Origin: Candidatus Heimdallarchaeota archaeon
GTDB lineage: Archaea; Asgardarchaeota; Heimdallarchaeia; Heimdallarchaeales; Heimdallarchaeaceae
Direction: 5' to 3'
Length of the DNA stretch: 64,000 nt
Assembly: GCA_030608385.1 (NCBI GenBank)
Contig: JAUWEG010000001.1
Coordinates: 23,479-87,478, forward strand
Part shown: positions 3,253 through 62,763 of the stretch, one piece after another
How the letters are laid out: every line of letters starts with the position of its first letter
How positions within the stretch are numbered: position 1 is the stretch's first letter
Translations under genes and position numbers: made by a program
Notes under the pieces: generated by a model
Seen by the model: only the letters and a program-made list of their open reading frames with translations
Told to the model about the DNA's origin: nothing
Database searches by the model: none

Positions 3253-3376
3253 TTTGCATATGATGTTTTATATTTGAATATATAAATAATAATCTTTTCT
3301 TATCCATTGCTCAAGTTAATGTATCTTTGATACAAAAGTCTTATATGAAGAAGTAATTAAAAGAAGGATATCCATT

Positions 3377-41369: not shown

Positions 41370-41837
41370 CTATAAATTGTACTTACCTATCTGATCAAAT
41401 GTAGCATATTTTTCTACATATTCTCGAACTTTTCTAGCATATTCTTTAGGGTCTCTTTTCATCAGATTAGCAGCTGTTGAATTTAAAGGGTCATCAGGAT
41501 TTGGATTACTTAAAATGAAGCGAATTGATTCTATAACATCAACTAGATTGTTCGCTGGGGTCCAATCTGCGCCTAGAACCCCTACACATATTCTTGTATC
41601 AAATACATTAGCATGAAAAACCTTTGTTAGCATTTTTACCTTTGGAGGTTTGAATGGATATTCTCTCGGAATATCGATATCAAGTACAAAAACACCATTT
41701 TCATATAAACCTGCTCCAAAAATAAATCCCCTCCATTGAAGTGTATTTCCGTCTATTGGTTTGAATGTTGGCAATTCTTTTTTTAACTCATTGGCTTCGA
41801 TTGCTATTCTAGGCCAAAATTCTTCTTCTGCTAACAT
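41370..41837 (-). CDS. ubiquitin-conjugating enzyme E2 (UBC fold, catalytic Cys retained)
   Basis: FHANVFDTRICVGVLGADWTPA aligns to the E2 HPN-x-G-x-IC-LDIL-x-W-SPA active-site block. Size is 155 aa. Confidence 0.75.
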   Translation of the reverse strand: MLAEEEFWPRIAIEANELKKELPTFKPIDGNTLQWRGFIFGAGLYENGVFVLDIDIPREYPFKPPKVKMLTKVFHANVFDTRICVGVLGADWTPANNLVDVIESIRFILSNPNPDDPLNSTAANLMKRDPKEYARKVREYVEKYATFDQIGKYNL

Positions 41838-42192: not shown

Positions 42193-42879
42193 ATGAGTAA
42201 CCCAGAGGAAATGTTAGTTCAACTAATTAACTCAATCAATAAGCTTTCAACTCTTGTTCAAAATGTAAATGATGCGATTTCTAAACTATCTACTCAAATT
42301 ACGCAATTAGAAACAAAGATGACGGGTTTTTCTAATGTTGAAAATCAAGTTTCTGAGGTAGGTCTTAAACTCAGTGAGATTCCTGGAATTAAAGATATGA
42401 TCGCAAACCTAAACACTAAGATTGATGGGTTGGGATCTATTGCTGTTGCAGCTCCTGCAAAATCCAAAGGCAAAGCCAAGAAAGGATCTGCCCCTGCAGT
42501 TGCAGTACCCGCTGAACCAGCTCCAGTAGAATATACTTCTCCAGGTATAGCTGAAGAAGATGATGGAGCAGGAGTTTCAGCTGAAGCTGATGCAGCTTTT
42601 AATGCTGTTTCCAAGAAATTTAAACATATAACACAAATGGTTAGCCCTACTAGTAGTTGTGGGAACATATCAAAGATGATCGAAGATTTAAGGGATGAAG
42701 TCGAAACTCATGTCGGAATGTCACCAATGTTATATGAACTAAACTCTTGGGTTCAAAGAGTTTCAAAAATGCCTGAAGCAGATGTACTTCTTCCTGAAGT
42801 CCATTCTGAATTAATTGGTAAACTAGATGATTGGTTAACAAGAGTGACCAAAGCAATTCACTTAAAATATCAAGATTAA
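42193..42879 (+). CDS. coiled-coil protein with an Ala/Pro-rich linker and a helical C-terminal domain
   Basis: N-terminal heptad-rich 80 aa, then an AAPAKSKGKAKKGSAPAVAVPAEPAP linker, then a roughly 100 aa helical domain. Confidence 0.4.
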   Translation: MSNPEEMLVQLINSINKLSTLVQNVNDAISKLSTQITQLETKMTGFSNVENQVSEVGLKLSEIPGIKDMIANLNTKIDGLGSIAVAAPAKSKGKAKKGSAPAVAVPAEPAPVEYTSPGIAEEDDGAGVSAEADAAFNAVSKKFKHITQMVSPTSSCGNISKMIEDLRDEVETHVGMSPMLYELNSWVQRVSKMPEADVLLPEVHSELIGKLDDWLTRVTKAIHLKYQD

Positions 42880-42966: not shown

Positions 42967-43605
42967 ATGATGAATCTAGGTGATATTAAGGGCATCATAG
43001 AGATAAACGGTGAGTCTTATGATCCAAAAGAGGTTCTTAGAGCTCTTCTTGAACAAGGTTTGAAAATCCATCCTTTAAATGGTTCCTTACTAATTGGACG
43101 AACTTTTATTGATCCTGCCCCAAATCTTGAATTTAGGAGCAAATCCTGTCCAATATCTACCCACTGTAAGATTTTTGAAAAACTGAACTTGTCAAAAGAA
43201 GAAACAACAGATTCTTCATTAACTTCATATGACCCTGACTTTGATTCACAATCACCTTCTAGTCCATCGCAATCTCCCCCTAACAGATCTTATACTGATC
43301 CAGTTCAGATGGATATTGATAATATGGATACCCAAAGTTTTTTTTCAGAATCATCCATTGAAGAGACAGTTTTACCATATGATGAACCTCAGAATAGTTC
43401 AGTTCTAAGGACCAACATAATCGATAATTTAGAACCTGAACCTGCTGAAATGATGGGAGTGTCTCCTGTAACAAAATATGGTGAATCGATGAACATAGAT
43501 GTTTCTCACATACCGTTAGAATACAAGGGAAGATGTCCTTATTGCAAATCTGTTGTTAATATGAAATGGAAGTTTTGTGGAACTTGTGGCACTCATATGC
43601 AATAA
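42967..43605 (+). CDS. protein with a ubiquitin-like-looking N-terminal domain, a Ser/Pro-rich linker and a C-terminal Cys4 zinc ribbon
   Basis: N-terminus roughly 60 aa (GESYDPKEVLRALLEQGLKIHPLNGSLLIGRTF) parallels the ubiquitin [41 protein letters not shown] segment. C-terminus CPYC-x11-CGTC. Confidence 0.35.
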   Translation: MMNLGDIKGIIEINGESYDPKEVLRALLEQGLKIHPLNGSLLIGRTFIDPAPNLEFRSKSCPISTHCKIFEKLNLSKEETTDSSLTSYDPDFDSQSPSSPSQSPPNRSYTDPVQMDIDNMDTQSFFSESSIEETVLPYDEPQNSSVLRTNIIDNLEPEPAEMMGVSPVTKYGESMNIDVSHIPLEYKGRCPYCKSVVNMKWKFCGTCGTHMQ

Positions 43606-45711: not shown

Positions 45712-46161
45712 TTATTCTTGTTCAAGATTAGTTTCGTTGTTTTTACGTTTCTTTTCTTCTTTTTCCCTTATTTGCCTATTCTTTTCTTCTTCTAAATGCT
45801 TTAACCCTTTATCTTTCAATTTTCCAGTTCCGCTACAAACTGGACAAACATCTTTTCTAGCTTCTCTTTTTGGTCCAGCATCTACATATCCCGTTCCGTA
45901 ACAATAAGGGCAATTTGTCCCTATAACCTTAGCACCTGTTCTTGCATAAATATACGATAATAGTAGAAACAAAACACCTAATCCAGCAGTGATGAAACCT
46001 GCTATTTCTAGTCCTCTCGCATCAATTCCGCTCTCTTCAAAAACAGCAATAGCTTTATCATACATATATAATCCAACAATAAGCAGAATACCACCAAATA
46101 GAAAGATGGAATACTGGATAACATAGATTCTTATATTCGAAACTCTTCTTTTCCCTTTCAT
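45712..46161 (-). CDS. two-TM membrane protein with a DnaJ-type CxxCxGxG zinc finger
   Basis: CPYCYGTGYV ... CPVCSGTGKL. The C-terminal tail is K/E-rich. Confidence 0.45.
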   Translation of the reverse strand: MKGKRRVSNIRIYVIQYSIFLFGGILLIVGLYMYDKAIAVFEESGIDARGLEIAGFITAGLGVLFLLLSYIYARTGAKVIGTNCPYCYGTGYVDAGPKREARKDVCPVCSGTGKLKDKGLKHLEEEKNRQIREKEEKKRKNNETNLEQE

Positions 46162-46255
46162 TATTGTTTGATTGTTTGTTTGAACGCTGAAAAATTTTGT
46201 GCTTCTGAAGAGAATGAATGAAGAAGAAAATTACAAGAATTTTTTCCAGTTCCTC

Positions 46256-46807
46256 TTATCTTCCTGCTCGTTTCATAGTTTCATTTTTTATTGCATTTCC
46301 TAGAAGAGCTTTAACTAATTCTCCTATTCCGGCTCCAGTTAATGCTGATGTTTCAAGATATCTACAGCCTAGTTTTCTAGATATTCTTTCTGCATCCCCT
46401 CTTAAAACTTCACGTTTTGCATCAGTTTTATTGCCAACAATTGTAATATCCAAATCAAGATTTTGATTTCTAAGTTCTCTAATCCAATCTGCACACTCTT
46501 TGAATGATTCTCTCCTAGATACATCAAAGATGATTGCTGCAGCATTGGTTCCTGAATATAGGAGATTCCTAACTACTCCAAATCTTTTTTGTCCTGCCAT
46601 GTCGTAAAACAGTGCTACCGCTTTTCCTTTGCCAGTTTTAAATGAATAAGTATGGAATTCAGCCCCTACAGTTGGCTTATAATGTTTTAGAAAAATATTT
46701 TCTGTTATCCTTTTGCAAATTGTTGTTTTTCCCGATCTACCGGGTCCACATATGGCTAACTTGTATATATCGTAATCTCGAAATTTAACTTCCACTTTGG
46801 AATTCAT
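46256..46807 (-). CDS. Ras-superfamily small GTPase (Rab/Ras-like)
   Basis: G1 GPGRSGKT, G3 DMAGQ (Ras-type catalytic Gln), G4 GNKTD, G5 TSAL. Size is 183 aa. Confidence 0.8.
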   Translation of the reverse strand: MNSKVEVKFRDYDIYKLAICGPGRSGKTTICKRITENIFLKHYKPTVGAEFHTYSFKTGKGKAVALFYDMAGQKRFGVVRNLLYSGTNAAAIIFDVSRRESFKECADWIRELRNQNLDLDITIVGNKTDAKREVLRGDAERISRKLGCRYLETSALTGAGIGELVKALLGNAIKNETMKRAGR

Positions 46808-46970
46808 GCAGTTAGCACCAAGGTAAACCTCTGAAAAATTAATAAAAGACGATGTAATACTAAGAGGTTACTTGAAACCATATGTAATTATGAGTACTAT
46901 AACATAATTATGCTTTACCAACCATATTTCTTGCTGAATTCTTAAATAATAAAGCTGAGTAAGTTGATGT

Positions 46971-47863: not shown

Positions 47864-48547
47864 TTATCTCCTTCTAAAATACAATAGAAATGCAGATAAT
47901 CCTGCAATTACAGCTGGCACTAAAGCAAAAATAACCCATGCCCATGCCGCGGAAATTGATTTACCCAAATTCCATTGTGGTAAGATAGTGTTTATTGGTG
48001 AATCAGCTGAAACGAAATCAACTAGAATCCGACTTAGACGAGATATTTCCTGTAAATCCCCCCAATTATCAAGATATGACATATCTACGGGAGGTATAGC
48101 TTTAGAAATAATACTATCTGAAGTTAAGTTATAATAGAATATAATATTTGTACCAGGTTCTAATTGTGTAATATTAAATTCCAAGTATTCTGTTGTCATG
48201 AATCCATAAGTGATATTTACTGGAGTAAAGTCATACTCTTCTGGTGTTTGCATTGTTGAATTGAGAGTTATATTACCGTTTGTTAATCTCCCAAACATAC
48301 TTGAATTGAGGGTTAATGGAGTTGAATCTGTGAAACTTAAAGAAACAGTAATATTGGTGATTGTATAGTTTAAATAATTCTTGATTATGATACCAACTTC
48401 TATATTTTCGTTTTGAACAGCTGTTTCATCAAAAGCTACTTGTTTAACTATTAATTGTTGTTCTGGTACGTAACTAGCTGCAAAATGAGCATAGAACATT
48501 ACTGATGTGAGAACTACTAACAAGAGAATCTTACTCTTTGATTTCAT
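47864..48547 (-). CDS. secreted, probably N-glycosylated, surface protein with a C-terminal TM anchor
   Basis: N-terminal signal peptide. At least 9 N-x-S/T sequons. C-terminal hydrophobic segment followed by RRR. Confidence 0.4.
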   Translation of the reverse strand: MKSKSKILLLVVLTSVMFYAHFAASYVPEQQLIVKQVAFDETAVQNENIEVGIIIKNYLNYTITNITVSLSFTDSTPLTLNSSMFGRLTNGNITLNSTMQTPEEYDFTPVNITYGFMTTEYLEFNITQLEPGTNIIFYYNLTSDSIISKAIPPVDMSYLDNWGDLQEISRLSRILVDFVSADSPINTILPQWNLGKSISAAWAWVIFALVPAVIAGLSAFLLYFRRR

Positions 48548-48621: not shown

Positions 48622-49344
48622 TTACATCAAATTAAGGGTACTTTGAAAAGCTCTAACTATATCGATATTTTCAATTACTGATGATTTTGCTACTATTTCA
48701 GGAAGTTGAAGATTAATCCAGTTCATAGCATCTTCCATTTTTTTCCGCATACTTGGGTCTGTTATTCGAAATATATCAACAAGTGTATCAAAATTAACAT
48801 TAGAGTTAGTTTCGAGTACTTCTAACCAATTTCGTAGTGTAACAATTCTTTGAGAGGGTAGAATGAACTCAACACTGTTATTGATTCGATTTGTTACCAC
48901 AACTCCTTTGATTTTTACGGGCATAAGTGAAATAAATTGACCCCCTAATTGTGATCGAAAAAGCAAAGAAAGTATCTTTGTTTTGTCATTTATTCGCAAT
49001 TTAGAGTATAAATGTTCATAATCTACCAGAGTTGTACCAAAGAAGATTTTGGTATCTCCATGTTCAATATTCAAAACTGATTTCGATTCTAGAACTGTAT
49101 TAAGATTATTTTTTTTGAATCTAATTGAAATGATTCGTGGTAAATCTTGAGTTAATTTCTCTAGAACTTTGTCAATATCACCTTCGATAACTAAATCATC
49201 ACCTGATCTTGAGAAACGAGGATCAAACAAGCGTTTTATTGTTACGGGTTCTTCCTCAAGAGCTGAATATAAATCATTCAAGCTCTCAATGTTGAGGGAT
49301 TTTTGTGATATTCTAATCATTGTAGCTTCAGGCAGCGAAAACAC
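48622..49344 (-). CDS. hypothetical protein co-oriented with and abutting polB
   Basis: Intact 240 aa ORF starting 6 nt after the polB stop. No motif recognised. Confidence 0.4.
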   Translation of the reverse strand: MFSLPEATMIRISQKSLNIESLNDLYSALEEEPVTIKRLFDPRFSRSGDDLVIEGDIDKVLEKLTQDLPRIISIRFKKNNLNTVLESKSVLNIEHGDTKIFFGTTLVDYEHLYSKLRINDKTKILSLLFRSQLGGQFISLMPVKIKGVVVTNRINNSVEFILPSQRIVTLRNWLEVLETNSNVNFDTLVDIFRITDPSMRKKMEDAMNWINLQLPEIVAKSSVIENIDIVRAFQSTLNLM

Positions 49345-49349
49345 CCCAT

Positions 49350-52184
49350 TTAACTAAACCAAGAATCAAGTGATTTTTGTCCTTCAATTGATTCTACCCA
49401 GGAAATACCTATGGTATCCAGAAGTTGTATTAAAGTAGATTTAAGTAGTTCTTTAACTTTAGGTATATCTACATCTGATTTTTCAGCCAATTGAATAGGT
49501 TTTACAGAGCATTCTTTGCTTTGGCTAATTTGATCTGAAAGCTTAATGGATTGAGCTTGAATCTTAAATGGTTTAGTTTTGATAAAACTAATCAAAGATC
49601 CTACAGTTGGTTTTTCACCATCAGGAAATGCTAACATAAGTTGAACTGCAGCTTGTAAAGGTTGAGTCCAACTATCATATTGCTCGATTTTCTTAGATAG
49701 AGTTACACTAATTGCTAGATCTTCAAGTTCAAAATTCCTTTTAGATATTTTTTGGTTAACAGCTTGTGTTATTCTTATTATCTTCTTCTTAGTTTCTTCT
49801 AATTCTTCCGGGGTTTGAACATCTGTTAAAATTTCTAATGATTTTTCAAATGGTCTTTTTGCTAAAATTGGCGTATTCTTCTTCCTACCCATCAAACCCT
49901 TTACTATTGGATATCCTTCAGTTGTGATTCCAAAGTAGTTTTTCTTTCTATCCGAAAGTCCACAATAACGGAATACATAATCGGTCCCTAATTCTATCTG
50001 AAAGGTTTCCATGCTCCATTTTTCCAATTCCTCGATGTTTTCGGGGGTTGGTTTGTGTATGAAAATACTATCTGTATCCCCATACAAAACCTGCAATCCT
50101 AATTTCTCTTCGCTATATTTCTTTGTTTTAGAAATTGCTTCTCGAGCAAGAGCCGCAGTTGACTCTGCCACAGGAGGGCAATACAAAGCAAAATTATCTG
50201 AACCAAAAACACCATAGGAGGCGTTAAGTAGTACTTTTAGAGAAGATTGTATGACATCACTAAGTTTTCTTTCTTCTTCGCTTAACGATGGATCTTTTGC
50301 TCTGTCTTTAAACCAGTAAACTCTGATATCCCTTATGAATCCAATTAGCATGGAACTTATACCCACATGCTTTTCACATATCCAGTGACTGGTTTCTGGT
50401 ATTTTGTTCTTCTTGCACTCAATATGATTACAATTCAAAGTTTCATACGATAGATTTCTAGTTTTTATGATGGAAGGATAGAGACTAGCAAAATCCATTA
50501 CATGAACATCCCACCATACACCAACTTGTGGATCTATTACAATTGCCCCTTGATACTTCTTTCCTTTAATGATGGCTTCAGTTGAAGTACCTCCCTTTAA
50601 TTGAAGAATATCCTCTCTCCTTGGGATTAAATAATTTCGGAATCTGTGTTCAAAATACATCCAATTCTGGATCCATATACTAATACTTGCTCGAGTAAAA
50701 TCATCTATTGGCATTTTTGTAATTCGAGAAAGCATTACTATTAAGTTAATTACTTGATCATTATTGAAACTGGTTAATTCAAAGGTTATTTCAGAATCTC
50801 TTCCATTGTATTCGATAAGTTCCTCCAAATCCAAGTCCCAAATATCTTTTTCATGTTTAAGTTTCTCCTTGCCTAGAATTGTTTTTCCAAGTTCATCAAG
50901 GGTTATTCTATCATAAACACCTCCAAATGCATAAATTCGAATGGCGGGTTGTCTAAAAAATCTATATAAATCGAGATGTATAGAGTGGGAAAGGAAAACG
51001 TTTTGAAATCTTGTTCGTACAAATGGATTCATCTTTTCATCAATTTCAAGTTTTTTCGCTCTATTATCTAGATACAAGAAATCAAAACCATCCCCATTAA
51101 ATGTAATAACGATAGGATATTTGCTCATTTCATCAAAAACTGCTAGAAGCAACTCTTTCTCATCATCAAACTCTTTAACCTTTACTGAAATTTTGCTTTG
51201 ATCTATTTGCTTTTTTTCTTCATTAAGCACAAAAACAGTGGTTTCTCTCTCTTCATTTGTTAAGCCTATTGAGATTACTTTCTGTAGGGCAGCATGAGGA
51301 TCAGGAATCTTGTTTTTTTCACTCTCAACTTCTATATCCACTGAACACCTGCTTATTTTAGGAATAGGGGCAAAGAATATGGGAAGATACTGCTCCACTA
51401 ATTGCAAAACTTCATGAGATTGTCCTTTAAAAATATCAAGTAAGTTGTCTTTAACTTCATTGGGTATTTTAGGTTCCACTCTTTGTAGTTTGTTGTTTTT
51501 AACTTCATAGAACAACCCAGGGACTAGTCCATTGTCATAGATATAATTCAAATGATATCTAATGTTAGCCTCAAAAGAGGGGCTGATTTTTTCCCTATAA
51601 CTATTATCTCTCCCCCCAATTGCTAGCGGATTTGTTGCAATTACCTTTGTTAGAGTTAATTCTTTTTCATTAAGTAGACTATATTTCTTAATAACCTCAC
51701 AACCGATAAACTCTTTTTCATTTGCAAGTTTTTTTTCTACTTCAGCTTTACTTACTGTAGTGAGCAAATATGGCAGGTGGTTTGTTGTATCATACCATCT
51801 GAAAACTTTACCTTGTTCTGGGTTGAACAGTTTTACATATGCCTTCTCTTTTTTACCATCATATTTTACATCAATAAGATAGGAAGAGGATAGATTTTCG
51901 GGAGCAAGATGAACATAACTGCTTCCCTTTTCTTCAAAGGATACCCCTTTCGATTTGTTAGCTGGTTTTTTATTTGTGTTTAGAAAAGCTCCTTTAGTTG
52001 AAGTTGATTCTTTATTGTCTCTTATGTTGATCTTTGAACTCAAATTTCCTTCTTTCTTTTTATCAGAATCTGCTTTGTTTGAATCTTGAATAAAACTCAT
52101 TAGACTTTTATGAGAATTTTTATTATCATTTTTCACGATAGATCTACCCATTCTTCTATTTTGATGCTCATCTCTAAATTGCAC
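49350..52184 (-). CDS. polB: family B DNA polymerase (PolB) with an N-terminal low-complexity extension and a C-terminal PIP box
   Basis: Pol motif A DFASLYPSII and motif C YGDTDSIF. Exonuclease blocks are present. The last residues QKSLDSWFS match the PIP-box Q-x2-L-x2-W-F. The first roughly 100 aa are K/S/N-rich. Confidence 0.9.
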   Translation of the reverse strand: MQFRDEHQNRRMGRSIVKNDNKNSHKSLMSFIQDSNKADSDKKKEGNLSSKINIRDNKESTSTKGAFLNTNKKPANKSKGVSFEEKGSSYVHLAPENLSSSYLIDVKYDGKKEKAYVKLFNPEQGKVFRWYDTTNHLPYLLTTVSKAEVEKKLANEKEFIGCEVIKKYSLLNEKELTLTKVIATNPLAIGGRDNSYREKISPSFEANIRYHLNYIYDNGLVPGLFYEVKNNKLQRVEPKIPNEVKDNLLDIFKGQSHEVLQLVEQYLPIFFAPIPKISRCSVDIEVESEKNKIPDPHAALQKVISIGLTNEERETTVFVLNEEKKQIDQSKISVKVKEFDDEKELLLAVFDEMSKYPIVITFNGDGFDFLYLDNRAKKLEIDEKMNPFVRTRFQNVFLSHSIHLDLYRFFRQPAIRIYAFGGVYDRITLDELGKTILGKEKLKHEKDIWDLDLEELIEYNGRDSEITFELTSFNNDQVINLIVMLSRITKMPIDDFTRASISIWIQNWMYFEHRFRNYLIPRREDILQLKGGTSTEAIIKGKKYQGAIVIDPQVGVWWDVHVMDFASLYPSIIKTRNLSYETLNCNHIECKKNKIPETSHWICEKHVGISSMLIGFIRDIRVYWFKDRAKDPSLSEEERKLSDVIQSSLKVLLNASYGVFGSDNFALYCPPVAESTAALAREAISKTKKYSEEKLGLQVLYGDTDSIFIHKPTPENIEELEKWSMETFQIELGTDYVFRYCGLSDRKKNYFGITTEGYPIVKGLMGRKKNTPILAKRPFEKSLEILTDVQTPEELEETKKKIIRITQAVNQKISKRNFELEDLAISVTLSKKIEQYDSWTQPLQAAVQLMLAFPDGEKPTVGSLISFIKTKPFKIQAQSIKLSDQISQSKECSVKPIQLAEKSDVDIPKVKELLKSTLIQLLDTIGISWVESIEGQKSLDSWFS

Positions 52185-55686: not shown

Positions 55687-56121
55687 ATGTTTATGACTGA
55701 TCTTTACTTAACCCATTACTATTTTGGTGTGAGAGAAGGAGCTTTTCATACTGGATTAGGATCAATCTTAAGAGCAAAAGGGCACTCAAAACCTGTATCG
55801 GTAATCATTATTGATAATTCTTTTACTTGGATTCCGGATTTAGAGCTAGAAGACTCTATTCCATATGTAATAATTAGATCTAATGAGACAGTGAATAATG
55901 TTCGGAACACTTTATTTGATACATTAAGTGTTTTGAAAAATGCTGTATGTTTAATTGTAAATTTCGATTTATTAATTACTAATGAAATTTTATCTCTTCA
56001 GGATCTCTTACAGATTATTCGAGATATTAATAACTCAAATGAATATATCTTTACATCAGAAGATTATTTCAAAGAACTTGAGGAATACGCAGATTATGTT
56101 AGTTCTATTAAGGAGCTTTGA
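55687..56121 (+). CDS. hypothetical protein, possibly a P-loop-less CobA-like paralogue
   Basis: Weak similarity in residue spacing to the N-terminal and central blocks of the CobA at 45088..45597, but without the GKGKT lysine. Confidence 0.3.
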   Translation: MFMTDLYLTHYYFGVREGAFHTGLGSILRAKGHSKPVSVIIIDNSFTWIPDLELEDSIPYVIIRSNETVNNVRNTLFDTLSVLKNAVCLIVNFDLLITNEILSLQDLLQIIRDINNSNEYIFTSEDYFKELEEYADYVSSIKEL

Positions 56122-56928: not shown

Positions 56929-59070
56929 CTACTTAATTTCTCTAATTGATGGTCCTTTGTAAGTAGCTTTATCAAACGCAATCCTTCTCATCTGAGTTTG
57001 AGTATTAATCTCCTCAAAATAATGTGCAGCCAGTCCCGCTGTTCTTCCAAATACAAAAATGACTTTTGCAAGTTTTGGGTCTAATCCCATGTCAGCTGTA
57101 ATCGCTGCAATAACCCCATCTACATTAATTGGGAGGTTCATTCCTCGCACGCGATGGAAAGTGCTACTAATCATTTTTGAAACATCAACACAGCTCTTTG
57201 CATATCCTGCGTCTTCTGCAAGTTTCCATAAAACATCTCTTCTAGGATCTTGTGTATGAATACGGTGACCTAAACCTTCAATTCTTTTGCCGGTTTTGAT
57301 TGTTTCACTTATCAATTTGAAGGTGGATTCATCGAGTTCCAATTTTTCTTTTTCAGCTTTTTCAACAACTGATAAGAAGAACTTAGCAGCCATTTGTCCT
57401 GCACCACCATGAACATCAGTAATTGCTTGTAAACCTCCAGCTACAGCTACTTCATAATTTGCTCTAGTAGAAGCTAGGATTATTGTTGCTTGAGCAGATG
57501 GTGGTGTGATTCCGTGATCTACACAAGCAATAATCATTGCTTCTAACAGCTTAACTTTAAGCGTGTCTGAGTTTTTTTCTTTTACCAATCCTAGATATAT
57601 CATTTCTGAGAATGATGTTTCAGAAACTGAAGAAGATTCTAGTTGATCTAAATTGCCTAGAATATATGCAAAATACTTCAAAACTCTTCCCAATGTGTAA
57701 GCTACGATTTTTGTTTCTTCAGAATTCAATCTTACAAAATCTGCAAGTTTATTATCGACCAACATCAATGTTCCAAGGGTTTTAGATATGTCTGAACTTA
57801 TGGTAATCGATTTAAGGTCTGTGAATTCTTGTTTTATTGCTTTTTTTGCAGTATCCTCAAGCTCTTTAAGTTGAGCTTCTTCAGGGAACTCTCCTTTAAG
57901 GAGTAAATATGACGTTTCCAGAAATCCTTTCTTTGCTATAATTTCTTGTAAAGGATATCCTCGAATTATCAAGTTGTTTGGCATTACATTAGTTACTAAA
58001 GTCCCCCAAGTTTTTACTGGTGGTCTAGCATCCCATTTTTTACTCATTTTTGAGTAATATTTTTCAATATCAAAATATGTTCGATTTAGTTTTGACCTTA
58101 CAGCATCAATTAAATCTCTTTGGTGGTTTACCACAGTTACTCCAGCTTTTTCCAAAGATTCCTTCTTTGATTGATAAGTACCATAACTTTGCCCAGGAGA
58201 AATTACAGCTCCTGCATGACCCATGGTTTTTCCTTCAGGAGCATTGGCCCCTGATATTAATGCAACTAGAGGCTTTTGATATTTTTCTGGATTTGCTTTC
58301 ATATCTTGAGCTAGCAATTCTTCCTGCATTCCACCAATTTCACCAGCGATAACAACTAAATCTGTGTGCTCGTATCGCATTATTCTTGATACAAGATCTA
58401 TAAAACGAGAACCAATAGCTCCATCTCCCCCTACACCCAATACTCCATTTTGAGCAATTCCTGCACTAGCTAGTGCATCAGATAAATGATATAGAATAGC
58501 TCCACTTCGAGATAAAATCGTCACTCCTTTGGGACCGATTTTGTTATCGGTTTTCTGAGCCTGAAAAATATCTGGTAGCATACCTACTTTTATTCCTTCT
58601 GGAGGAAATATTATTCCTGGTGTGTTACCGCCAAATAAGATTGTTTTATGTTTTCTAGCTTCAACTAGAATGTCTCTTACATCCTTAAGAGGAATGAATT
58701 CTGAAATTAGAACAACAATAGGAATTCCTGATCTAATAACTTCAATTGTAGCATCTTTAGCAGAAGAATAATGTTTCCATATACTTGCTACAGCTATGTC
58801 CGGGTGTTTCTTTTTTGCTACCTCAGCAGATTCATAAACAGGAACAGTTTCATGAACATATGTACCACCTTTGCCTGGTGCTACTCCACATGTAACATTG
58901 GTTCCATATTCCATCATAAGTTGCGCGTGTCGAGTTCCTTGTCTTCCTAATCCTACAATCATTGTTTCGATTGTTTTCTTTTCCGATATTTTCTGAGCGA
59001 GTTCAGGACGAATGTGTTTGATAAGATAATTAAGAAGTCCTTGATCCACGGCTAATTTATCAGTTGTCAT
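56929..59070 (-). CDS. aclA: ATP-citrate lyase large subunit (SucD-like CoA-binding/phosphohistidine domain fused to a citrate-synthase-like domain)
   Basis: N-terminal CoA-binding Rossmann fold. Phosphohistidine motif TMGHAGA. C-terminal roughly 280 aa with citrate-synthase-fold blocks. 4-nt overlap with the upstream ATP-grasp subunit. Confidence 0.8.
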   Translation of the reverse strand: MTTDKLAVDQGLLNYLIKHIRPELAQKISEKKTIETMIVGLGRQGTRHAQLMMEYGTNVTCGVAPGKGGTYVHETVPVYESAEVAKKKHPDIAVASIWKHYSSAKDATIEVIRSGIPIVVLISEFIPLKDVRDILVEARKHKTILFGGNTPGIIFPPEGIKVGMLPDIFQAQKTDNKIGPKGVTILSRSGAILYHLSDALASAGIAQNGVLGVGGDGAIGSRFIDLVSRIMRYEHTDLVVIAGEIGGMQEELLAQDMKANPEKYQKPLVALISGANAPEGKTMGHAGAVISPGQSYGTYQSKKESLEKAGVTVVNHQRDLIDAVRSKLNRTYFDIEKYYSKMSKKWDARPPVKTWGTLVTNVMPNNLIIRGYPLQEIIAKKGFLETSYLLLKGEFPEEAQLKELEDTAKKAIKQEFTDLKSITISSDISKTLGTLMLVDNKLADFVRLNSEETKIVAYTLGRVLKYFAYILGNLDQLESSSVSETSFSEMIYLGLVKEKNSDTLKVKLLEAMIIACVDHGITPPSAQATIILASTRANYEVAVAGGLQAITDVHGGAGQMAAKFFLSVVEKAEKEKLELDESTFKLISETIKTGKRIEGLGHRIHTQDPRRDVLWKLAEDAGYAKSCVDVSKMISSTFHRVRGMNLPINVDGVIAAITADMGLDPKLAKVIFVFGRTAGLAAHYFEEINTQTQMRRIAFDKATYKGPSIREIK

Positions 59071-60383
59071 TTAATACCCTCCATGTTCTCACTTTGCTTT
59101 TTCACTTTAAACCCATATTCAATTCCATCTTTAATGACATCCGCCATTATCTTTTGATTTCCAACAACAATGTGTAAGTCTATTAATGGTTCTGGAGTTT
59201 CTAGCTTAGCTTTCTCAAGGAAAGCTTTTGCAGCTGCTAAATCAGTTCCAACCATTCGACCATAAACCGGTATCATTCTTTTCTTAGCAATGAATCTATC
59301 TCTTAATGACATAATCAATCCTTGAATGAAGACATCACAACTGGATATCCCCCCAAAACGACTAGTTATGATCAGATCTGTTGCAGGATGATCCATTAGA
59401 AGGTGGAACATATCTGCAACCTTACTTATTGAAGGACCACCACCACTATCCATGAAATTTATGGGAATAACCTTGCCATTGAAATATCGATTTCCAACAT
59501 TAACAATTTCATCTACAGAAAAAATTCCATATCCTGCTCCTCCTGGAACAAGACCTACATACAGTTTTTCTTCATCTTTCATAAAATTCTCTGGATTCTC
59601 AAGTAAATCAATGAACGGAAAGCCTATTTGATATGCTTTTGCTTCAAAAGCTGTTTGCTCTGAAACATCGTGCCTTTTACTTCTGGGATCTATCCCAATT
59701 GATTTCAGCAAAGGTGTTTGCCTGTACAAACTGTTATCATCAAGTACAAATTTCGCATCAGCAGCAATTATATCTCCTTTCTTTGTTACAATTAGGGGGT
59801 TTATTTCACAGATTTTTGCTTCTGCACCCTGAAAAGCCAAATAGAGAGATTCAATAGTTTGTTGAAGTTTTTCACTTACTAGTTGGAGATTTTGATTTTT
59901 ATCTACTAGAAAATCAGTAGCTTTTTTTCCTATTTCAGCATTCAAAGATTTATCATTATTTCTTAGTACTTTCTTCCATATTTCATCTGGTTTAGTTCGA
60001 GCAACTTCTTCAATATCAACACCACCACTTGCAGATGTCACCAATACTATATCAAAAGTTGCAGGATCAGTGGTTATGCACAAGTAGATTTCACTAGCAA
60101 TATCGACTGCTTCCTCAAGTAAAATTTTCTTTATAGGATAACCATGAATTGTTAAGTTCAACATTTCTTTTATGATGCTCTCTGTTTCCTCAATAGTTTC
60201 AGCTTTCTTTATTCCTCCTGCTTTTCCCCTTCCTCCAATCAAAATCATAGCTTTAATCATAATAGGAAATTCTAAAGATATATCTACTAAATCTTCAATA
60301 CGTTCTATTATTGCTATTTGTTTAGGAATTTTAAGGTTAAACTGTTCAAAAATCTGCTTTGCCTCATATTCGTATAATTTCAT
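59067..60383 (-). CDS. aclB: ATP-citrate lyase small subunit (SucC-like ATP-grasp)
   Basis: MKLYEYEAKQIF N-terminus typical of the succinyl-CoA synthetase beta / ACL ATP-grasp subunit. Confidence 0.8.
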   Translation of the reverse strand: MKLYEYEAKQIFEQFNLKIPKQIAIIERIEDLVDISLEFPIMIKAMILIGGRGKAGGIKKAETIEETESIIKEMLNLTIHGYPIKKILLEEAVDIASEIYLCITTDPATFDIVLVTSASGGVDIEEVARTKPDEIWKKVLRNNDKSLNAEIGKKATDFLVDKNQNLQLVSEKLQQTIESLYLAFQGAEAKICEINPLIVTKKGDIIAADAKFVLDDNSLYRQTPLLKSIGIDPRSKRHDVSEQTAFEAKAYQIGFPFIDLLENPENFMKDEEKLYVGLVPGGAGYGIFSVDEIVNVGNRYFNGKVIPINFMDSGGGPSISKVADMFHLLMDHPATDLIITSRFGGISSCDVFIQGLIMSLRDRFIAKKRMIPVYGRMVGTDLAAAKAFLEKAKLETPEPLIDLHIVVGNQKIMADVIKDGIEYGFKVKKQSENMEGIK

Positions 60384-60393
60384 TTTTATCCCT

Positions 60394-62253
60394 CTAGTTT
60401 GAATATTGTTTTTGATAATATTTGATAAGCCCTCCAGCTGTAAATATTTCTAGTAATTCACTTGGTAGTTTTGGGAAAGAATAAACTTGACTTCCATTTG
60501 TAATTTGGCCTTTTTCTAAGTCAACTGTTGTTTGCTGATTTCTATCAAATTTATCAATGAACTCTTGATGTACAATGATTGGTAATCCCTGATTAATTGC
60601 AGATCTATAAAAGATTCGAGATACTGATTTTACAATAACAGCTTTAACACCTGCAGCTGCAAGCCCTACGGCTGGATGTTCTCTTGATGATCCACATCCA
60701 AAATTTTCTCCACCTATTACAATATCCCCTTCCTTAACTCTAGCTGCAAAAGTTTCATCTAAGCCTTTGAATAGATGTGGAACTATTTTATCCCCCTCTG
60801 AAGACTTAATGTCGTATGTAAGATCTCCAGCAAACATCTGATCTGTGTTGAAATCATCAACATCACTATAATCCCAAACATACATGCTGTATCTATCGTC
60901 TTTAGAGTCTATTTCAAGGGTTTTAGTTTCTACATCTCTATATTGTAGCACTATTTCAGTTTCCTCTCTTATGGCTCCAGATGACAGATATTTTCTGGGG
61001 TCTGTAATTTTTCCTTCAATTGCAGAAGCTGTTATTGTAGCTGGAGATGCTAAAAATATACGTGTATTTTTATTCCCCATTCTTCCCAGAAAATTCCTGT
61101 TTGCAGTAGATAAAACATTCCAATCGTCAGCTGGTATTCCTTGTCCCTTGCCTAAGCAAGGACCACAACTGCATGAAAGTATTGTTGCCCCTGCTTCAAC
61201 AAGTGTTTGAATAACTCCCCTCTCTAAAGCTTCAAGATAGATTTTGTTTGAAGCTGGAGCTACAAGAAATATTACCCCATTTTTCACTTTTTTATCTTTG
61301 ATTATTTTCGCAGCAATTTCTAAATCATCTAATCTGGCATTTGTACAAGTTCCAAGAAAAGCTTGATGAATGGGGGTTTCTTCTAGTTTTTTGGCAAATT
61401 GTGTATTATCTACTTGATGTGGAACCGCAACTAAAGGTTCCAATTTGCTTAAATCTAGAATGATTTCTCTGTTAAAAATTGCATCTTTGTCTGACCAGAA
61501 TGGTTTTTCTTGCGGACTTCCAAATGAATGATGCTTTTCCTTTAACCAATTAATTAAGACTTTATCATGTGGAAAAATAGCTGTTTTAGCACCCATCTCT
61601 GAAGCTAGGTTTGCTAGTGTCATTCTTTCAGATATAGATAAATTTTCTACGCCTTTTCCATGAAACTCAATCGCATAATATGTTGCCCCTGCAGCACCTA
61701 TTTTATTCATTAGCCATAAAGCAATATCCTTTGCATAAACACCCAAAGGCAATTTTCCATTTAGAACAATTTTAATTGTTTCAGGAACTCTAAACCAAGT
61801 CTTTCCTGTTAACCACAATCCTGCTGTTTCTGTTCTATCAATTCCTGCTGCAAATGTTGCAAATGCACCACTTGTGCATGTATGAGAATCTGACCCAACA
61901 ATGAGCATATTGGGTGAAGCATGGTTGGACATCAATTGGTGGCAGATTCCCTTCCCTTCATCATAGAAATTAGTGATATTCTGCTTTTTAACTAACTCTC
62001 TTATACTTTTATGATCATTTGCTATCTTAGCACTCGTTGGAGGGGAATCATGATCCAAGACAATTACAAGACGTTCAGGAAATTTGATTTTTGTTCCACC
62101 CATTTTTTGAAAAGTTTTTTCTATTGATGCTGAATTGTCGTGTGACAAAATTAAATCAGGTTCTGCATAAACTATATCGCCAGCTTTCACATCTGTATTT
62201 GACTTAAACGAAAAGAGTTTTTCTGAAAATGTTTTACCATTCATATATCCCAC
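60394..62253 (-). CDS. aconitase-family dehydratase, fused large (LeuC-like) and small (LeuD-like) subunits
   Basis: GSDSHTCTSGAFATFA, GTCTNARLDD and SCSCGPC Fe-S ligand blocks in the first roughly 420 aa. A LeuD-like swivel domain (GENFGCGSSREH) in the last roughly 190 aa. Confidence 0.75.
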   Translation of the reverse strand: MGYMNGKTFSEKLFSFKSNTDVKAGDIVYAEPDLILSHDNSASIEKTFQKMGGTKIKFPERLVIVLDHDSPPTSAKIANDHKSIRELVKKQNITNFYDEGKGICHQLMSNHASPNMLIVGSDSHTCTSGAFATFAAGIDRTETAGLWLTGKTWFRVPETIKIVLNGKLPLGVYAKDIALWLMNKIGAAGATYYAIEFHGKGVENLSISERMTLANLASEMGAKTAIFPHDKVLINWLKEKHHSFGSPQEKPFWSDKDAIFNREIILDLSKLEPLVAVPHQVDNTQFAKKLEETPIHQAFLGTCTNARLDDLEIAAKIIKDKKVKNGVIFLVAPASNKIYLEALERGVIQTLVEAGATILSCSCGPCLGKGQGIPADDWNVLSTANRNFLGRMGNKNTRIFLASPATITASAIEGKITDPRKYLSSGAIREETEIVLQYRDVETKTLEIDSKDDRYSMYVWDYSDVDDFNTDQMFAGDLTYDIKSSEGDKIVPHLFKGLDETFAARVKEGDIVIGGENFGCGSSREHPAVGLAAAGVKAVIVKSVSRIFYRSAINQGLPIIVHQEFIDKFDRNQQTTVDLEKGQITNGSQVYSFPKLPSELLEIFTAGGLIKYYQKQYSN

Positions 62254-62256
62254 TTT

Positions 62257-62763
62257 TTACATTATTTCTCCAAGTTTTAAAAGACCACCAGCTTTTATTA
62301 TATCTAATACTGGTTGAGGTATTTTAACGCATTTAATGGTCTCCCCATTATTTTGGTTGATAATTAATGATTGAGTTATGTCTATTTCTAGATCATCATC
62401 TTCTTTAACCTTGAATTCAGATATTCCTGGTACTTCAACAAGGAGTAAACCTGAATTTACAGAATTACTATAATAAATTGGTCCAAAAGATTCACCAACT
62501 ATTGCTGTGATTCCATGAGCTATAAATCCTGTTACAGCTTGTTGTCTTGTGGATCCTTTACCGAAATTTTTACCAACCAATAATATTTTCCCAACATTGT
62601 CTTCCTTTCCAAAACTCTTATACCCTTCAAGATTTCCGAAAATATGCGGTTTTATTTCATTGGGGTCATGAATTGTTAGTAAGGATTGATGAAATATTTG
62701 GTCGGTATCAACGTCATCTACTATGACTAGCTTTGCTTTTGCTTTGATTGTTTCTTTGCTCAT
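62257..62763 (-). CDS. 3-isopropylmalate/homoaconitate dehydratase small subunit (LeuD-like)
   Basis: GKNFGKGSTRQQA block. 168 aa. 4-nt overlap with the upstream large subunit. Confidence 0.8.
   Translation of the reverse strand: MSKETIKAKAKLVIVDDVDTDQIFHQSLLTIHDPNEIKPHIFGNLEGYKSFGKEDNVGKILLVGKNFGKGSTRQQAVTGFIAHGITAIVGESFGPIYYSNSVNSGLLLVEVPGISEFKVKEDDDLEIDITQSLIINQNNGETIKCVKIPQPVLDIIKAGGLLKLGEIM

What the first reader, a model, noticed from the sequence alone, without database searches (positions are those of the whole stretch)
45712..46807. Ras/Rab-like small GTPase with a full G1-G5 motif set, next to a DnaJ-zinc-finger membrane protein
DMAGQ (Ras-type catalytic Gln), GNKTD and TSAL place this protein in the Ras superfamily rather than among prokaryotic MglA or translation GTPases. 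This is a eukaryote-signature protein. The adjacent two-TM protein with a CxxCxGxG x2 finger is a candidate membrane partner.
Basis: partly seen in the sequence, partly recalled or inferred. Interest (0 to 1): 0.6.

Follow-up and report, generated by a model that had tools for sequence, protein, structure and literature searches.

The report
Asgard Rab-like GTPase beside zinc-knuckle membrane protein
This is a genuine eukaryote-type (Ras/Rab-like) small GTPase gene in a Heimdallarchaeaceae (Asgard archaeon) genome, a protein class known in these archaea since 2015, and the small zinc-finger membrane protein next to it is a conserved neighbour with no positive evidence of being its partner.

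Summary
ORF 46256-46807(-) encodes a 183-aa small GTPase with all five G motifs (Pfam Ras E=1.1e-33). ORF 45712-46161(-) encodes a 149-aa protein with two TM helices and one CxxCxGxG...CxxCxGxG zinc knuckle.

The window comes from a Heimdallarchaeaceae (Asgard) MAG. The GTPase belongs to the known Asgard 'RasL/Rab-like' class. Its best PDB matches are Rab5, Rab11 and Rab35, then Thorarchaeota Rab and Ran. Its AlphaFold model superposes on Rabs at TM 0.84-0.90. In an NJ tree it falls inside Rab/Ras/Rho/Ran, away from Arf/Sar1/MglA (97%), with no resolved eukaryotic sister. It has no C-terminal Cys, so it cannot be prenylated. Public records already annotate it.

The zinc-knuckle membrane protein is confined to this one archaeal family: 4 clusters among 1.84 billion representatives. 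It is adjacent to the GTPase in about 30 loci, but these lie inside a collinear ~12-kb housekeeping block. Each gene has its own conserved promoter-like element. Their evolutionary rates do not covary. One lineage has cleanly deleted the membrane gene and kept the GTPase, and another has a gene inserted between them. The adjacency does survive an inversion of the GTPase.

Verdict: a new member of a known kind. The partner idea is an untested lead.

The parts
46256..46807 (-). Ras/Rab-like small GTPase gene (183 aa), a single-copy orthogroup of Heimdallarchaeaceae
   Evidence: ORF. Pfam Ras E=1.1e-33. PDB profile hits: Rab5 2.8e-31, Rab11, Rab35, Thor-Rab 2.3e-27, Ran 2.3e-26. AF2 pLDDT 85.6. 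Foldseek TM 0.84-0.90 to Rab10/11/35/8. Orthologues at 56-99% identity.
46724..46747 (-). G1 / P-loop GPGRSGKT (residues 21-28)
   Evidence: Read from the translation. G21, G26, K27 and T28 are invariant.
46670..46672 (-). Switch-I threonine (T46, G2)
   Evidence: Invariant T46 in alignments A2, A5 and A7.
46589..46603 (-). G3 / switch II DMAGQ (residues 69-73), with the Ras-type catalytic Gln73
   Evidence: Translation. D69, G72 and Q73 are invariant.
46421..46432 (-). G4 NKTD (residues 126-129), guanine specificity
   Evidence: Translation. N126, K127 and D129 are invariant.
46340..46348 (-). G5 SAL (residues 154-156)
   Evidence: Translation. S154 and A155 are invariant.
46808..46863 (-). 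Conserved 5' region of the GTPase: CTTAGTATTACATCGTCTTTTATT (TATA-like) followed by GGTGCT (Shine-Dalgarno-like, 46814-46819)
   Evidence: Nearly invariant across loci whose proteins are only 69-80% identical. The core motif is also present, in the matching orientation, upstream of the inverted GTPase in L028. The promoter and SD roles are inferred.
45712..46161 (-). Two-TM zinc-knuckle membrane protein (149 aa), restricted to Heimdallarchaeaceae
   Evidence: ORF. Homologues are found only in Heimdallarchaeaceae. A profile search of 1.84e9 representatives gives only 4 full-length clusters. AF2 predicts a TM hairpin, a small beta knuckle and a C-terminal helix.
46060..46134 (-). TM helix 1 (about residues 10-34)
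   Evidence: Hydrophobic stretch IRIYVIQYSIFLFGGILLIVGLYMY. AF2 helix 6-44 with pLDDT 81-93. Conserved I12, Y13, F20, G30.
45943..46008 (-). TM helix 2 (about residues 52-73)
   Evidence: Hydrophobic stretch EIAGFITAGLGVLFLLLSYIYA. AF2 helix 49-82. Conserved G62, S69, Y72.
45823..45912 (-). Single zinc centre: CPYCYGTG (residues 84-91) ... CPVCSGTG (residues 106-113), predicted to face the cytoplasm
   Evidence: C84, C87, C106, C109 and the glycines are invariant. The only PDB sequence match is the DnaJ Cys-rich domain 1EXK, E=6e-4, aligned to its repeats 2-3. Topology is inferred from the positive-inside rule.
46178..46201 (-). Conserved element upstream of the membrane-protein gene: CACAAnnTTTTTCAGCGTTTAAAC, 17-40 nt (TTCAAAC core 17-23 nt) before the ATG (TATA-like; probable own promoter)
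   Evidence: Conserved in about 20 loci whose proteins are 50-60% identical. It was deleted together with the gene in L035. The promoter role is inferred.

Best explanation
The 183-aa protein is an Asgard archaeal Ras-like ('RasL', Rab-like) small GTPase.

Shown:
- It has every residue needed to bind Mg-GTP and to hydrolyse it by the Ras/Rab mechanism: P-loop Lys/Thr, switch-I Thr46, switch-II Asp69/Gly72 and the catalytic Gln73.
- It has NKxD/SAx guanine specificity and a Rab-type fold.
- It lacks any C-terminal cysteine, so it cannot be prenylated.

Inferred:
- It acts as a soluble GTP/GDP switch. Its switch regions recruit still-unknown effectors in the GTP state.
- It cycles with the help of unidentified GAP/GEF proteins encoded elsewhere.
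- It is a strongly conserved, single-copy housekeeping member of the family, not one of the fast-evolving paralogues.

The downstream 149-aa protein is a lineage-specific membrane protein. It has N-in/C-in topology, a two-helix hairpin and one cytoplasmic DnaJ-type Cys4 zinc knuckle. By analogy with J-domain-less DnaJ-like zinc-finger membrane proteins, it most likely acts as a membrane-tethered protein-binding or holdase adaptor.

The two genes are neighbours mainly because they sit in a slowly rearranging syntenic block: PolB, two hypotheticals, 3-hydroxyacyl-CoA dehydrogenase, GTPase, ZnF-TM, CobA, RadA ... E2. They appear to be transcribed from separate promoters. Current evidence does not show that they work together.
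For: GTPase identity:
- Pfam Ras 1.1e-33 and TIGR00231 small_GTP 9e-18.
- PDB phmmer hits: Rab11 7e-23, Rab5, Rab21, Rab35, Ran 8.5e-22.
- Orthologue profile against PDB: Rab5 2.8e-31 ... Thor-Rab 2.3e-27, Ran 2.3e-26.
- AF2 pLDDT 85.6 and pTM 0.83 with the canonical strand/helix order.
- The top 50 Foldseek hits are Rab, Ran and Ral, with TM up to 0.90.
- NJ, 500 bootstraps: orthogroup monophyletic 100%; inside Rab/Ras/Rho/Ran excluding Arf/Sar1/MglA 96.8%; no sister above 25%. This matches the published picture of Asgard RasL (bioRxiv 10.1101/2024.02.28.582541; PMC4915359).
- No C-terminal Cys in any orthologue.

Host and orthogroup:
- Hits are named Heimdallarchaeota or Heimdallarchaeaceae.
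- There is one copy in the window.
- Mean Kimura distance is 0.29, against 0.185 for RadA and 0.79 for CobA.

Synteny rather than operon:
- An identical 11-gene order in about 20 GTDB species.
- Separate conserved upstream elements. The GTPase element moves with the gene when it is inverted.
- No terminator or sigma-70 signal is relevant here.

Against an obligate pairing:
- Partial r for GTPase and ZnF-TM is -0.13, rank 38 of 45 gene pairs.
- A clean deletion of ZnF-TM with an intact GTPase in L035.
- YdjM lies between the two genes in L046.

ZnF-TM nature:
- Invariant Cys4/Gly pattern and conserved TM residues.
- The DnaJ Cys-rich domain is the only PDB match.
- The family is limited to 4 clusters.
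- Plant FIP has the same TM plus two-CxxCxGxG layout and binds FtsH5 (PMC5915565).
Against: - No biochemical data exist for this orthogroup. GTP binding, hydrolysis, effectors and localisation are all inferred.
- Adjacency of the two genes is retained in three different local arrangements: tandem; head-to-head with 3HCDH beyond the GTPase; and head-to-head with hyp227 beyond the GTPase. This is somewhat more persistent than pure chance synteny would predict.
- The ZnF-TM family and this GTPase orthogroup appear to share the same narrow taxonomic range.
- The mirror-tree test has little power with 17 genomes.
- The deletion in L035 comes from one metagenomic contig, and the gene might lie elsewhere in that genome.
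- The holdase/adaptor role of the zinc knuckle rests only on analogy. The zinc-knuckle part of the model has pLDDT 60-67.
Confidence: 0.75

Rival explanations
1. Functional pair. The zinc-knuckle membrane protein is the membrane receptor or anchor (or a membrane-bound effector or regulator) of the non-lipidated GTPase. It would bind the GTPase on the cytoplasmic face in a nucleotide-dependent way and so substitute for the prenyl anchor of eukaryotic Rabs.
For: - The two genes are adjacent in essentially all loci where both flanks are visible.
- They remain adjacent after inversion of the GTPase and after other local rearrangements in lineages with 56-59% and 36-44% identity.
- The zinc knuckle is predicted to be cytoplasmic, the same compartment as the GTPase (sequence).
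- The GTPase has no lipidation site.
- How Asgard GTPases reach membranes is an open question (PMC4915359; PMC10732040).
Against: - The whole ~12-kb block is collinear, so adjacency is not specific to this pair.
- Each gene has its own conserved promoter-like element, and they do not form an overlapping or tight operon.
- There is no rate covariation.
- ZnF-TM is precisely deleted in L035 while the GTPase stays intact at 81% identity.
- YdjM is inserted between the two genes in L046.
Confidence: 0.12
2. The GTPase is a specific archaeal relative or precursor of Ran, as JGI's automatic name suggests. It would be a soluble, non-lipidated GTPase that sets up a spatial GTP/GDP gradient, not a Rab-like membrane-identity switch.
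For: - Ran is among the best PDB hits (8.5e-22).
- Ran shows the highest pairwise identity of any eukaryotic family, about 30-34%.
- Switch I (KHYKPTVGAEFH against Ran's KKYVATLGVEVH) and switch II (GQKRFGVVRN against GQEKFGGLRD) resemble Ran.
- Like Ran, the protein lacks lipidation.
Against: - With the orthologue profile, many Rab chains outrank Ran by about 5 orders of magnitude.
- Ran is the sister group in only 8% of bootstraps.
- There is no C-terminal extension and no acidic DEDDDL-like tail (sequence).
- Published trees find no Asgard sister to an individual eukaryotic family (bioRxiv 10.1101/2024.02.28.582541).
Confidence: 0.05
3. The protein is a prokaryote-type MglA, Era or other bacterial-type GTPase that only mimics the Ras motifs.
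For: None beyond the shared P-loop NTPase fold. Weak sub-threshold Pfam hits to FeoB_N, MMR_HSR1 and EF-Tu.
Against: - Pfam Ras scores 116 bits against 18-19 bits for those families.
- The complete DxxGQ, NKxD and SAL set is present.
- It groups with Rab/Ras/Rho/Ran to the exclusion of MglA, Arf and Sar1 in 96.8% of bootstraps.
- It is 20% identical to MglA against 27-30% to Rabs and Ran.
Confidence: 0.01

Closest known systems
Asgard 'RasL' / archaeal Rab-like small GTPases (Klinger et al. 2016 classes; Surkont & Pereira-Leal 2016, PMC4915359; Thorarchaeota Rab, PDB 7EZB, PMC10933270)
   Same: Ras-family domain with a complete G1-G5 set and catalytic Gln. Rab-like fold. No C-terminal prenylation cysteines. 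Asgard host. Unresolved position within the Rab/Ras/Rho/Ran clade.
   Different: A distinct, single-copy orthogroup seen here only in Heimdallarchaeaceae. It is highly conserved (56-99% identity) and embedded in a housekeeping block. It has an invariant N-terminal VKFRDYD[IV]Y segment. Its assignment to RasL subgroups I-IV was not tested.
Eukaryotic Rab GTPases (Rab5, Rab11, Rab35, Rab8/10)
   Same: Best sequence and structure matches: E down to 2.8e-31, TM 0.84-0.90. A Rab-like N-terminal 'DYDxxFK/YK' lead-in to strand 1. An F/Y/Y hydrophobic triad at the Rab positions (sequence).
   Different: Only about 25-30% identical. RabF motifs are only partly kept: VGAEF for IGVDF; FYD in place of IWD, so the RabF2 Trp is missing; RFGVVR for RFRSIT. 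No hypervariable C-terminal tail and no CC/CxC prenylation site. Not placed inside the Rab clade.
Ran
   Same: Non-lipidated. Similar switch I and switch II wording. Highest pairwise identity, about 30-34%.
   Different: No C-terminal extension or acidic tail. The profile search prefers Rabs. No phylogenetic support for a sister relationship.
J-domain-less DnaJ-like zinc-finger membrane proteins of plastids (FIP, PMC5915565; ORANGE, PMC6985574 and PMC12063368)
   Same: A small membrane-anchored protein whose soluble part is a CxxCxGxG-type Cys4 zinc finger without a J domain. FIP also has exactly two repeats, hence one zinc centre.
   Different: No detectable homology beyond the motif. Pfam is below threshold and only DnaJ 1EXK is matched, at E=6e-4. 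The protein here has a two-helix hairpin anchor with conserved intramembrane Gly/Tyr/Ser residues, an archaeal host and a K/E-rich C-terminal helix. OR has four repeats. Any partner such as FtsH5 (FIP) or phytoene synthase (OR) is unknown here.
E. coli DnaJ cysteine-rich domain (PDB 1EXK), zinc centre II
   Same: The two repeats align to DnaJ repeats 2 and 3, which together form one zinc-bound hairpin.
   Different: No J domain, no G/F region, no C-terminal substrate-binding domains and only one zinc centre. The protein is membrane-anchored.

Membership tests
Ras superfamily small GTPase (Pfam PF00071) | Score above the curated Pfam threshold over the full domain | tested here: met
   116.5 bits against a cut-off of 21.6, residues 16-169 on model positions 1-157 of 162.
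Ras superfamily small GTPase (Pfam PF00071) | G1 GxxxxGK[ST], G2 Thr, G3 DxxG(Q), G4 NKxD, G5 SA[KL] | tested here: met
   GPGRSGKT, T46, DMAGQ, NKTD and SAL, invariant in orthologues.
Ras superfamily small GTPase (Pfam PF00071) | Six-stranded sheet and five-helix G-domain fold | tested here: met
   AF2 pLDDT 85.6. Foldseek TM 0.84-0.90 and rmsd 1.4-2.0 A to Rab structures. This is a predicted structure, not a solved one.
Ras superfamily small GTPase (Pfam PF00071) | GTP binding and hydrolysis | not testable with these tools
   Requires purified protein.
Asgard RasL (Ras-like) group | An Asgard sequence falling in the Rab/Ras/Rho/Ran(+Rup1) clade, separate from ArfR/ArfL, Rag/Gtr and MglA | tested here: met
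   96.8% NJ bootstrap for the split that excludes Arf/Sar1/MglA. Pfam Arf scores 37.7 bits against 116.5 for Ras, with no Gtr1_RagA hit. The host is Heimdallarchaeaceae.
Eukaryotic Rab family sensu stricto | All five RabF motifs (IGVDF, KLQIW, RFrsiT, YYRGA, LVYDIT) | tested here: not met
   Read by eye against motifs recalled from Pereira-Leal & Seabra 2000: VGAEF, ALFYD (no Trp), RFGVVR, LYSGT, IIFDVS. The resemblance is only partial.
Eukaryotic Rab family sensu stricto | C-terminal prenylatable cysteines (CC, CxC or CAAX) after a hypervariable tail | tested here: not met
   The protein ends ...NETMKRAGR. No Cys lies after residue 148 in any orthologue.
Eukaryotic Rab family sensu stricto | Phylogenetic placement inside the Rab clade | tested here: inconclusive
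   No sister group exceeds 25% bootstrap. Published analyses also fail to resolve this (PMC4915359; bioRxiv 10.1101/2024.02.28.582541).
Ran | C-terminal extension with an acidic DEDDDL-type tail, and a supported sister relationship to Ran | tested here: not met
   No extension or acidic tail (sequence). Ran is the sister in 8% of bootstraps. Rabs outrank Ran in the profile search.
MglA / bacterial polarity GTPases | Grouping with MglA; an MglB/roadblock partner encoded nearby | tested here: not met
   Excluded from MglA at 96.8%. 20% identity to MglA. No roadblock-domain ORF among the window ORFs scanned.
DnaJ / Hsp40 (Pfam DnaJ_CXXCXGXG, PF00684) | Four CxxCxGxG repeats forming two zinc centres, scoring above the Pfam threshold | tested here: not met
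   Only two repeats. 19.8 bits against a cut-off of 32.7, and 21-23.5 bits for the divergent homologues.
DnaJ / Hsp40 (Pfam DnaJ_CXXCXGXG, PF00684) | N-terminal J domain with an HPD motif | tested here: not met
   No DnaJ (J-domain) Pfam hit. The N-terminal half is a TM hairpin.
   Adjacency is kept through an inversion and rearrangements. It is lost in L035 by deletion and in L046 by an intervening gene. The background block is collinear.
   The intergenic spacer is 55-128 nt across the confirmed loci. It holds a conserved TATA-like element for the downstream gene, and the GTPase has its own separate conserved 5' element. The shared TTTTTCAGnGnTT motif is not enriched: 10 matches against 6.1 expected. 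No transcript data are available.
   Partial r = -0.13, rank 38 of 45 pairs in the block. This is a low-power test on 17 genomes.

The most novel reading that the evidence does not exclude
The lineage-specific two-TM zinc-knuckle protein is the dedicated membrane receptor of this non-lipidated Rab-like GTPase. That would give a protein-based, prenylation-independent way of putting a Rab-type switch on an archaeal membrane. It would be a concrete, testable answer to how Asgard small GTPases engage membranes.
Probability: 0.1. Interest if true: 0.7.

Novelty: new member of a known kind. Interest (0 to 1): 0.25.

Why it matters
Small GTPases of the Rab/Ras type are central to theories of how eukaryotic endomembranes arose from Asgard archaea. 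This locus adds nothing categorically new to that picture. Such genes are abundant in Asgard genomes, and this one is already annotated.

Two modestly useful points come out of the analysis:
1. This is a well-defined orthogroup. It is single-copy and strongly conserved, it sits in a housekeeping neighbourhood, and it has a conserved 5' control region. That makes it a better candidate for biochemical study than the many fast-evolving paralogues.
2. Its persistent neighbour is a cytoplasm-facing, membrane-anchored zinc knuckle found only in the same archaeal family. Published work states that archaeal Rab-like proteins show no membrane-association signal (PMC4915359; PMC10732040). A cheap binding or localisation test on this pair could therefore be informative either way. 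On present evidence the link is unproven and more likely coincidental.

Tried and rejected
1. AlphaFold on a GTPase-(GGGGS)6-ZnF-TM fusion with a genome-paired alignment (A3), to look for an interface.
2. Foldseek against afdb50 for the membrane protein. The library was unavailable. Foldseek against PDB gave only generic helical hairpins at E>=1.
3. A shared promoter motif for the two genes (TTTTTCAGnGnTT). There are 10 matches in the window against 6.1 expected, and the GTPase copy is not conserved in other species. Rejected as evidence of co-regulation.
4. Mirror-tree rate covariation among 10 genes of the block. There is no GTPase/ZnF-TM signal.
5. The sigma-70 and intrinsic-terminator scan does not apply to an archaeon and found nothing useful.
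6. The word-indexed protein search found only close orthologues of either protein. More distant ZnF-TM relatives needed the exhaustive HMM search.
7. A search for roadblock or longin regulators among the window ORFs scanned found none. The ORFs at about 9-17.9 kb, largely a ribosomal-protein cluster judging by position, were not scanned.
8. PDB sequence searches for the uncharacterised neighbours hyp240 and hyp228 found nothing significant.
9. The Ran-specific reading was considered because of JGI's name for the protein and the 30-34% identity. It was rejected on the profile ranking and the tree.
10. The N-terminal ~180 residues of the Ras-like protein in L049 looked roadblock-like by eye, but Pfam gave no hit.
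Full report
**1. What is in the sequence**

The interval holds two co-directional minus-strand ORFs, 94 nt apart.

ORF 46256-46807 encodes 183 aa with these motifs:
- G1 GPGRSGKT (residues 21-28)
- switch-I Thr46
- G3 DMAGQ (residues 69-73)
- G4 NKTD (residues 126-129)
- G5 SAL (residues 154-156)

Pfam gives Ras E=1.1e-33 (116.5 bits, cut-off 21.6), Roc 7.9e-22 and Arf 1.9e-9. FeoB, EF-Tu and MMR_HSR1 score only at noise level. NCBIfam gives the small_GTP domain at 9e-18.

ORF 45712-46161 encodes 149 aa. It has a basic N-terminus, two hydrophobic helices, CPYCYGTG...CPVCSGTG, and a K/E-rich tail. Pfam DnaJ_CXXCXGXG scores only 19.8 bits, below its 32.7 cut-off. The small plus-strand ORFs overlapping these genes are antisense artefacts.

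**2. Where it comes from**

Close homologues of both proteins are named Candidatus Heimdallarchaeota or Heimdallarchaeaceae. Heimdallarchaeota AB_125 carries the same locus (L010). The window is about 34% G+C.

The window also encodes archaeal and eukaryote-like housekeeping genes: RadA, family-B DNA polymerase, SecY, ribosomal proteins, Cbf5/TruB, archaeosine/queuosine genes, an E2 ubiquitin-conjugating enzyme and ATP-citrate-lyase-like genes. There is a single Ras-like gene in the window. None of the scanned ORFs carries a roadblock or longin domain.

**3. What the GTPase is**

- Against PDB sequences, the best matches are Rab11, Rab5, Ypt51, Rab21, Rab35 and Ran, all near E=1e-22, with the Thorarchaeota Rab (7EZB) among them.
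- A profile of 27 orthologues sharpens this ranking: Rab5 2.8e-31, Rab11, Rab35, Rab21, Ypt31/32, Thor-Rab 2.3e-27, Ran 2.3e-26.
- The AlphaFold2 model is confident (pLDDT 85.6, pTM 0.83) and has the canonical G-domain topology.
- Foldseek's top hits are GTP-state Rab10, Rab11, Rab35 and Rab8 at TM 0.84-0.90. Ran structures show the highest identity, 30-34%.
- I built an NJ tree with 500 bootstraps.
  - The orthogroup is monophyletic at 100%.
  - It lies inside Rab/Ras/Rho/Ran, excluding Arf/Sar1/MglA, at 96.8%.
  - No sister group exceeds 25%, and Ran is the sister in 8% of replicates.

This is the published situation for Asgard 'RasL/Rab-like' GTPases. They cluster with Rab/Ras/Rho/Ran and bacterial Rup1 without a resolved eukaryotic sister (bioRxiv 10.1101/2024.02.28.582541; PMC4915359). 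The 'would refute' outcome, placement with MglA or Era, is not observed.

The protein lacks any C-terminal cysteine, as do all orthologues. The literature likewise reports that archaeal Rab-like proteins show no prenylation site or other membrane signal (PMC4915359; PMC10732040). RabF motifs are only partly present and the RabF2 Trp is missing, so it is Rab-like and not a Rab.

**4. The orthogroup**

Orthologues at 56-99% identity occur once per genome in about 20 GTDB species and in many metagenomic contigs. An N-terminal VKFRDYD[IV]Y segment is invariant.

Its divergence (mean Kimura distance 0.29) is close to that of core genes in the same block: RadA 0.185, hyp240 0.37, CobA 0.79.

A ~55-nt upstream region is almost invariant: CTTAGTATTACATCGTCTTTTATT...GGTGCT. 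Its core motif accompanies the gene where it is inverted. I read it as a TATA-like promoter element plus a Shine-Dalgarno-like GGTG. That reading is an inference.

**5. The neighbour**

All four Cys, the motif glycines and several intramembrane residues (Y13, F20, G30, G62, S69, Y72) are invariant. The loop between the helices varies from about 0 to 18 residues. The conserved parts are therefore the hairpin and the cytoplasmic knuckle.

By the positive-inside rule both termini, and hence the zinc knuckle, face the cytoplasm (inference). AF2 gives a confident TM hairpin (pLDDT 81-93) and a less confident knuckle (60-67).

An exhaustive profile search of 1.84 billion representatives finds only four full-length clusters. 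Every other hit matches the CxxCxGxG segment alone. The family is therefore confined to Heimdallarchaeaceae.

The only solved relative by sequence is the DnaJ cysteine-rich domain (1EXK, E=6e-4), aligned to repeats 2-3, which form one zinc centre. Fold search is uninformative.

The nearest architectural analogues are plastid J-domain-less DnaJ-like zinc-finger membrane proteins. The closest is FIP, which has a TM anchor plus two CxxCxGxG repeats and binds the FtsH5 protease (PMC5915565). ORANGE is another (PMC6985574). By analogy, the most likely role is a membrane-tethered protein-binding or holdase adaptor. This is an inference with modest confidence.

**6. Are they partners?**

For:
- The genes are adjacent wherever both flanks are visible in the main clade.
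- In more divergent lineages the GTPase is inverted and lies head-to-head with the membrane gene. Other genes have meanwhile been inserted or reshuffled around them: YdjM, DUF362, and a hyp227/3HCDH swap. These lineages are L028/L029 (GTPase 56%, ZnF-TM 36% identity) and L030 (59%, 44%).

Against:
- The entire 11-gene block from PolB to the E2 is collinear in about 20 species, so adjacency is not specific to this pair.
- The spacer (55-128 nt across the confirmed loci) contains a strongly conserved TATA-like element, CACAAnnTTTTTCAGCGTTTAA, 17-40 nt upstream of the membrane gene's ATG. This indicates a separate promoter. The apparent motif shared between the two upstream regions is not enriched and not conserved.
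- Evolutionary rates do not covary: partial r = -0.13, rank 38 of 45 pairs.
- In contig Ga0272441_10016320 (L035) the membrane gene and its upstream element are cleanly deleted. The intact GTPase (81% identity) then abuts CobA.
- In L046 a YdjM gene lies between the two genes. In L045 a TnpB fragment and YdjM flank the GTPase.

An interaction model could not be computed. I therefore regard the partnership as an untested lead with about 10% probability, not a finding.

**7. Mechanism, with status**

Shown:
- the Ras-family domain
- the full catalytic and nucleotide-binding motif set
- a Rab-type predicted fold
- the absence of a lipidation site
- strong purifying selection
- for the neighbour, a two-helix anchor plus an invariant Cys4 knuckle

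Inferred:
- The GTPase cycles between GDP and GTP states.
- It signals through its switch regions to unknown effectors, under GAP/GEF control encoded elsewhere.
- It is soluble, or is recruited to membranes by protein-protein contacts.
- The neighbour is a cytoplasm-facing membrane adaptor or holdase.

**8. Novelty and score**

This is a further member of a well-documented class, Asgard Ras-like GTPases, and is already annotated in public databases. The membrane zinc-knuckle family appears undescribed, but it is small, lineage-restricted and of unknown function.

Interest is low to moderate at 0.25. The residual value lies in the testable membrane-receptor hypothesis and in nominating a well-behaved orthogroup for biochemistry.

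Noticed in passing
window 27126-28307 (+): A 393-aa protein made of an array of C2H2 zinc fingers (Pfam zf-C2H2 E=5.8e-44, zf-H2C2_2 2.1e-37). This eukaryote-style architecture is unusual for an archaeon. It lies just downstream of the S13/S4/S11 ribosomal genes.
   Followed up: no
window 41370-41837 (-): An E2 ubiquitin-conjugating enzyme homologue (Pfam UQ_con E=3.5e-34). It is the most conserved gene of the syntenic block, at 75-100% identity across the related loci with mean Kimura distance 0.08. It is another eukaryotic signature protein about 4.4 kb from the GTPase.
   Followed up: partly
window 46808-46863 (-), and the same region in L001-L024 and L028: The ~55 nt upstream of the GTPase (CTTAGTATTACATCGTCTTTTATT...GGTGCT) is more conserved than the coding sequence, across orthologues down to 56% protein identity. 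It moves with the gene when the gene is inverted. It could hold a regulator binding site as well as a promoter.
   Followed up: partly
L035 3287-3355 compared with L014 6897-7476: A precise deletion of the whole ZnF-TM gene plus its upstream element in one metagenomic lineage. It leaves a 69-nt GTPase-CobA spacer.
   Followed up: yes
L002/L003 1-3404 and L028 995-4759, compared with window 49350-52184: The family-B DNA polymerase of some relatives carries an intein (Intein_splicing, LAGLIDADG; 1254-1347 aa). The window copy (944 aa) and several others do not.
   Followed up: no
window 48622-49344 (-), 47864-48547 (-), 42193-42879 (+), 42967-43605 (+): Four conserved genes of the block have no Pfam family above threshold. 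hyp240 lies 5 nt (9-23 nt in the related loci) downstream of PolB. hyp227 is a membrane or secreted protein rich in N-x-S/T sites. hyp228 is coiled-coil-like. hyp212 has a C-terminal zinc ribbon. hyp240 shows the highest raw distance correlation with the GTPase, r=0.95.
   Followed up: partly
window 55687-56121 (+) and L030 10403-10879: A second, divergent CobA/CobO-like P-loop protein (Pfam 3.5e-5, below threshold) lies next to a TYW2/Trm5 methyltransferase gene. The same pairing appears in L030.
   Followed up: no
L049 (metagenome contig Ga0209635_10000929), ORF around 3001-3477: A 360-aa protein with a ~180-aa N-terminal extension of no recognised family, fused to a Ras-family domain (Pfam Ras 4.1e-43). 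It is 32% identical to the window GTPase. It is an unrelated paralogue, probably from another Asgard lineage.
   Followed up: partly
window 56929-63929 (-): ATP-citrate-lyase-like genes (a citrate-synthase/CoA-ligase fusion plus an ATP-grasp subunit) followed by aconitase-family genes. This suggests reverse-TCA-type carbon metabolism.
   Followed up: no
L045 156-458 (+): A TnpB/Cas12f-like TNB-domain fragment (Pfam 8.8e-10) sits where the ZnF-TM gene would be expected. This indicates IS activity in the locus in one lineage.
   Followed up: no
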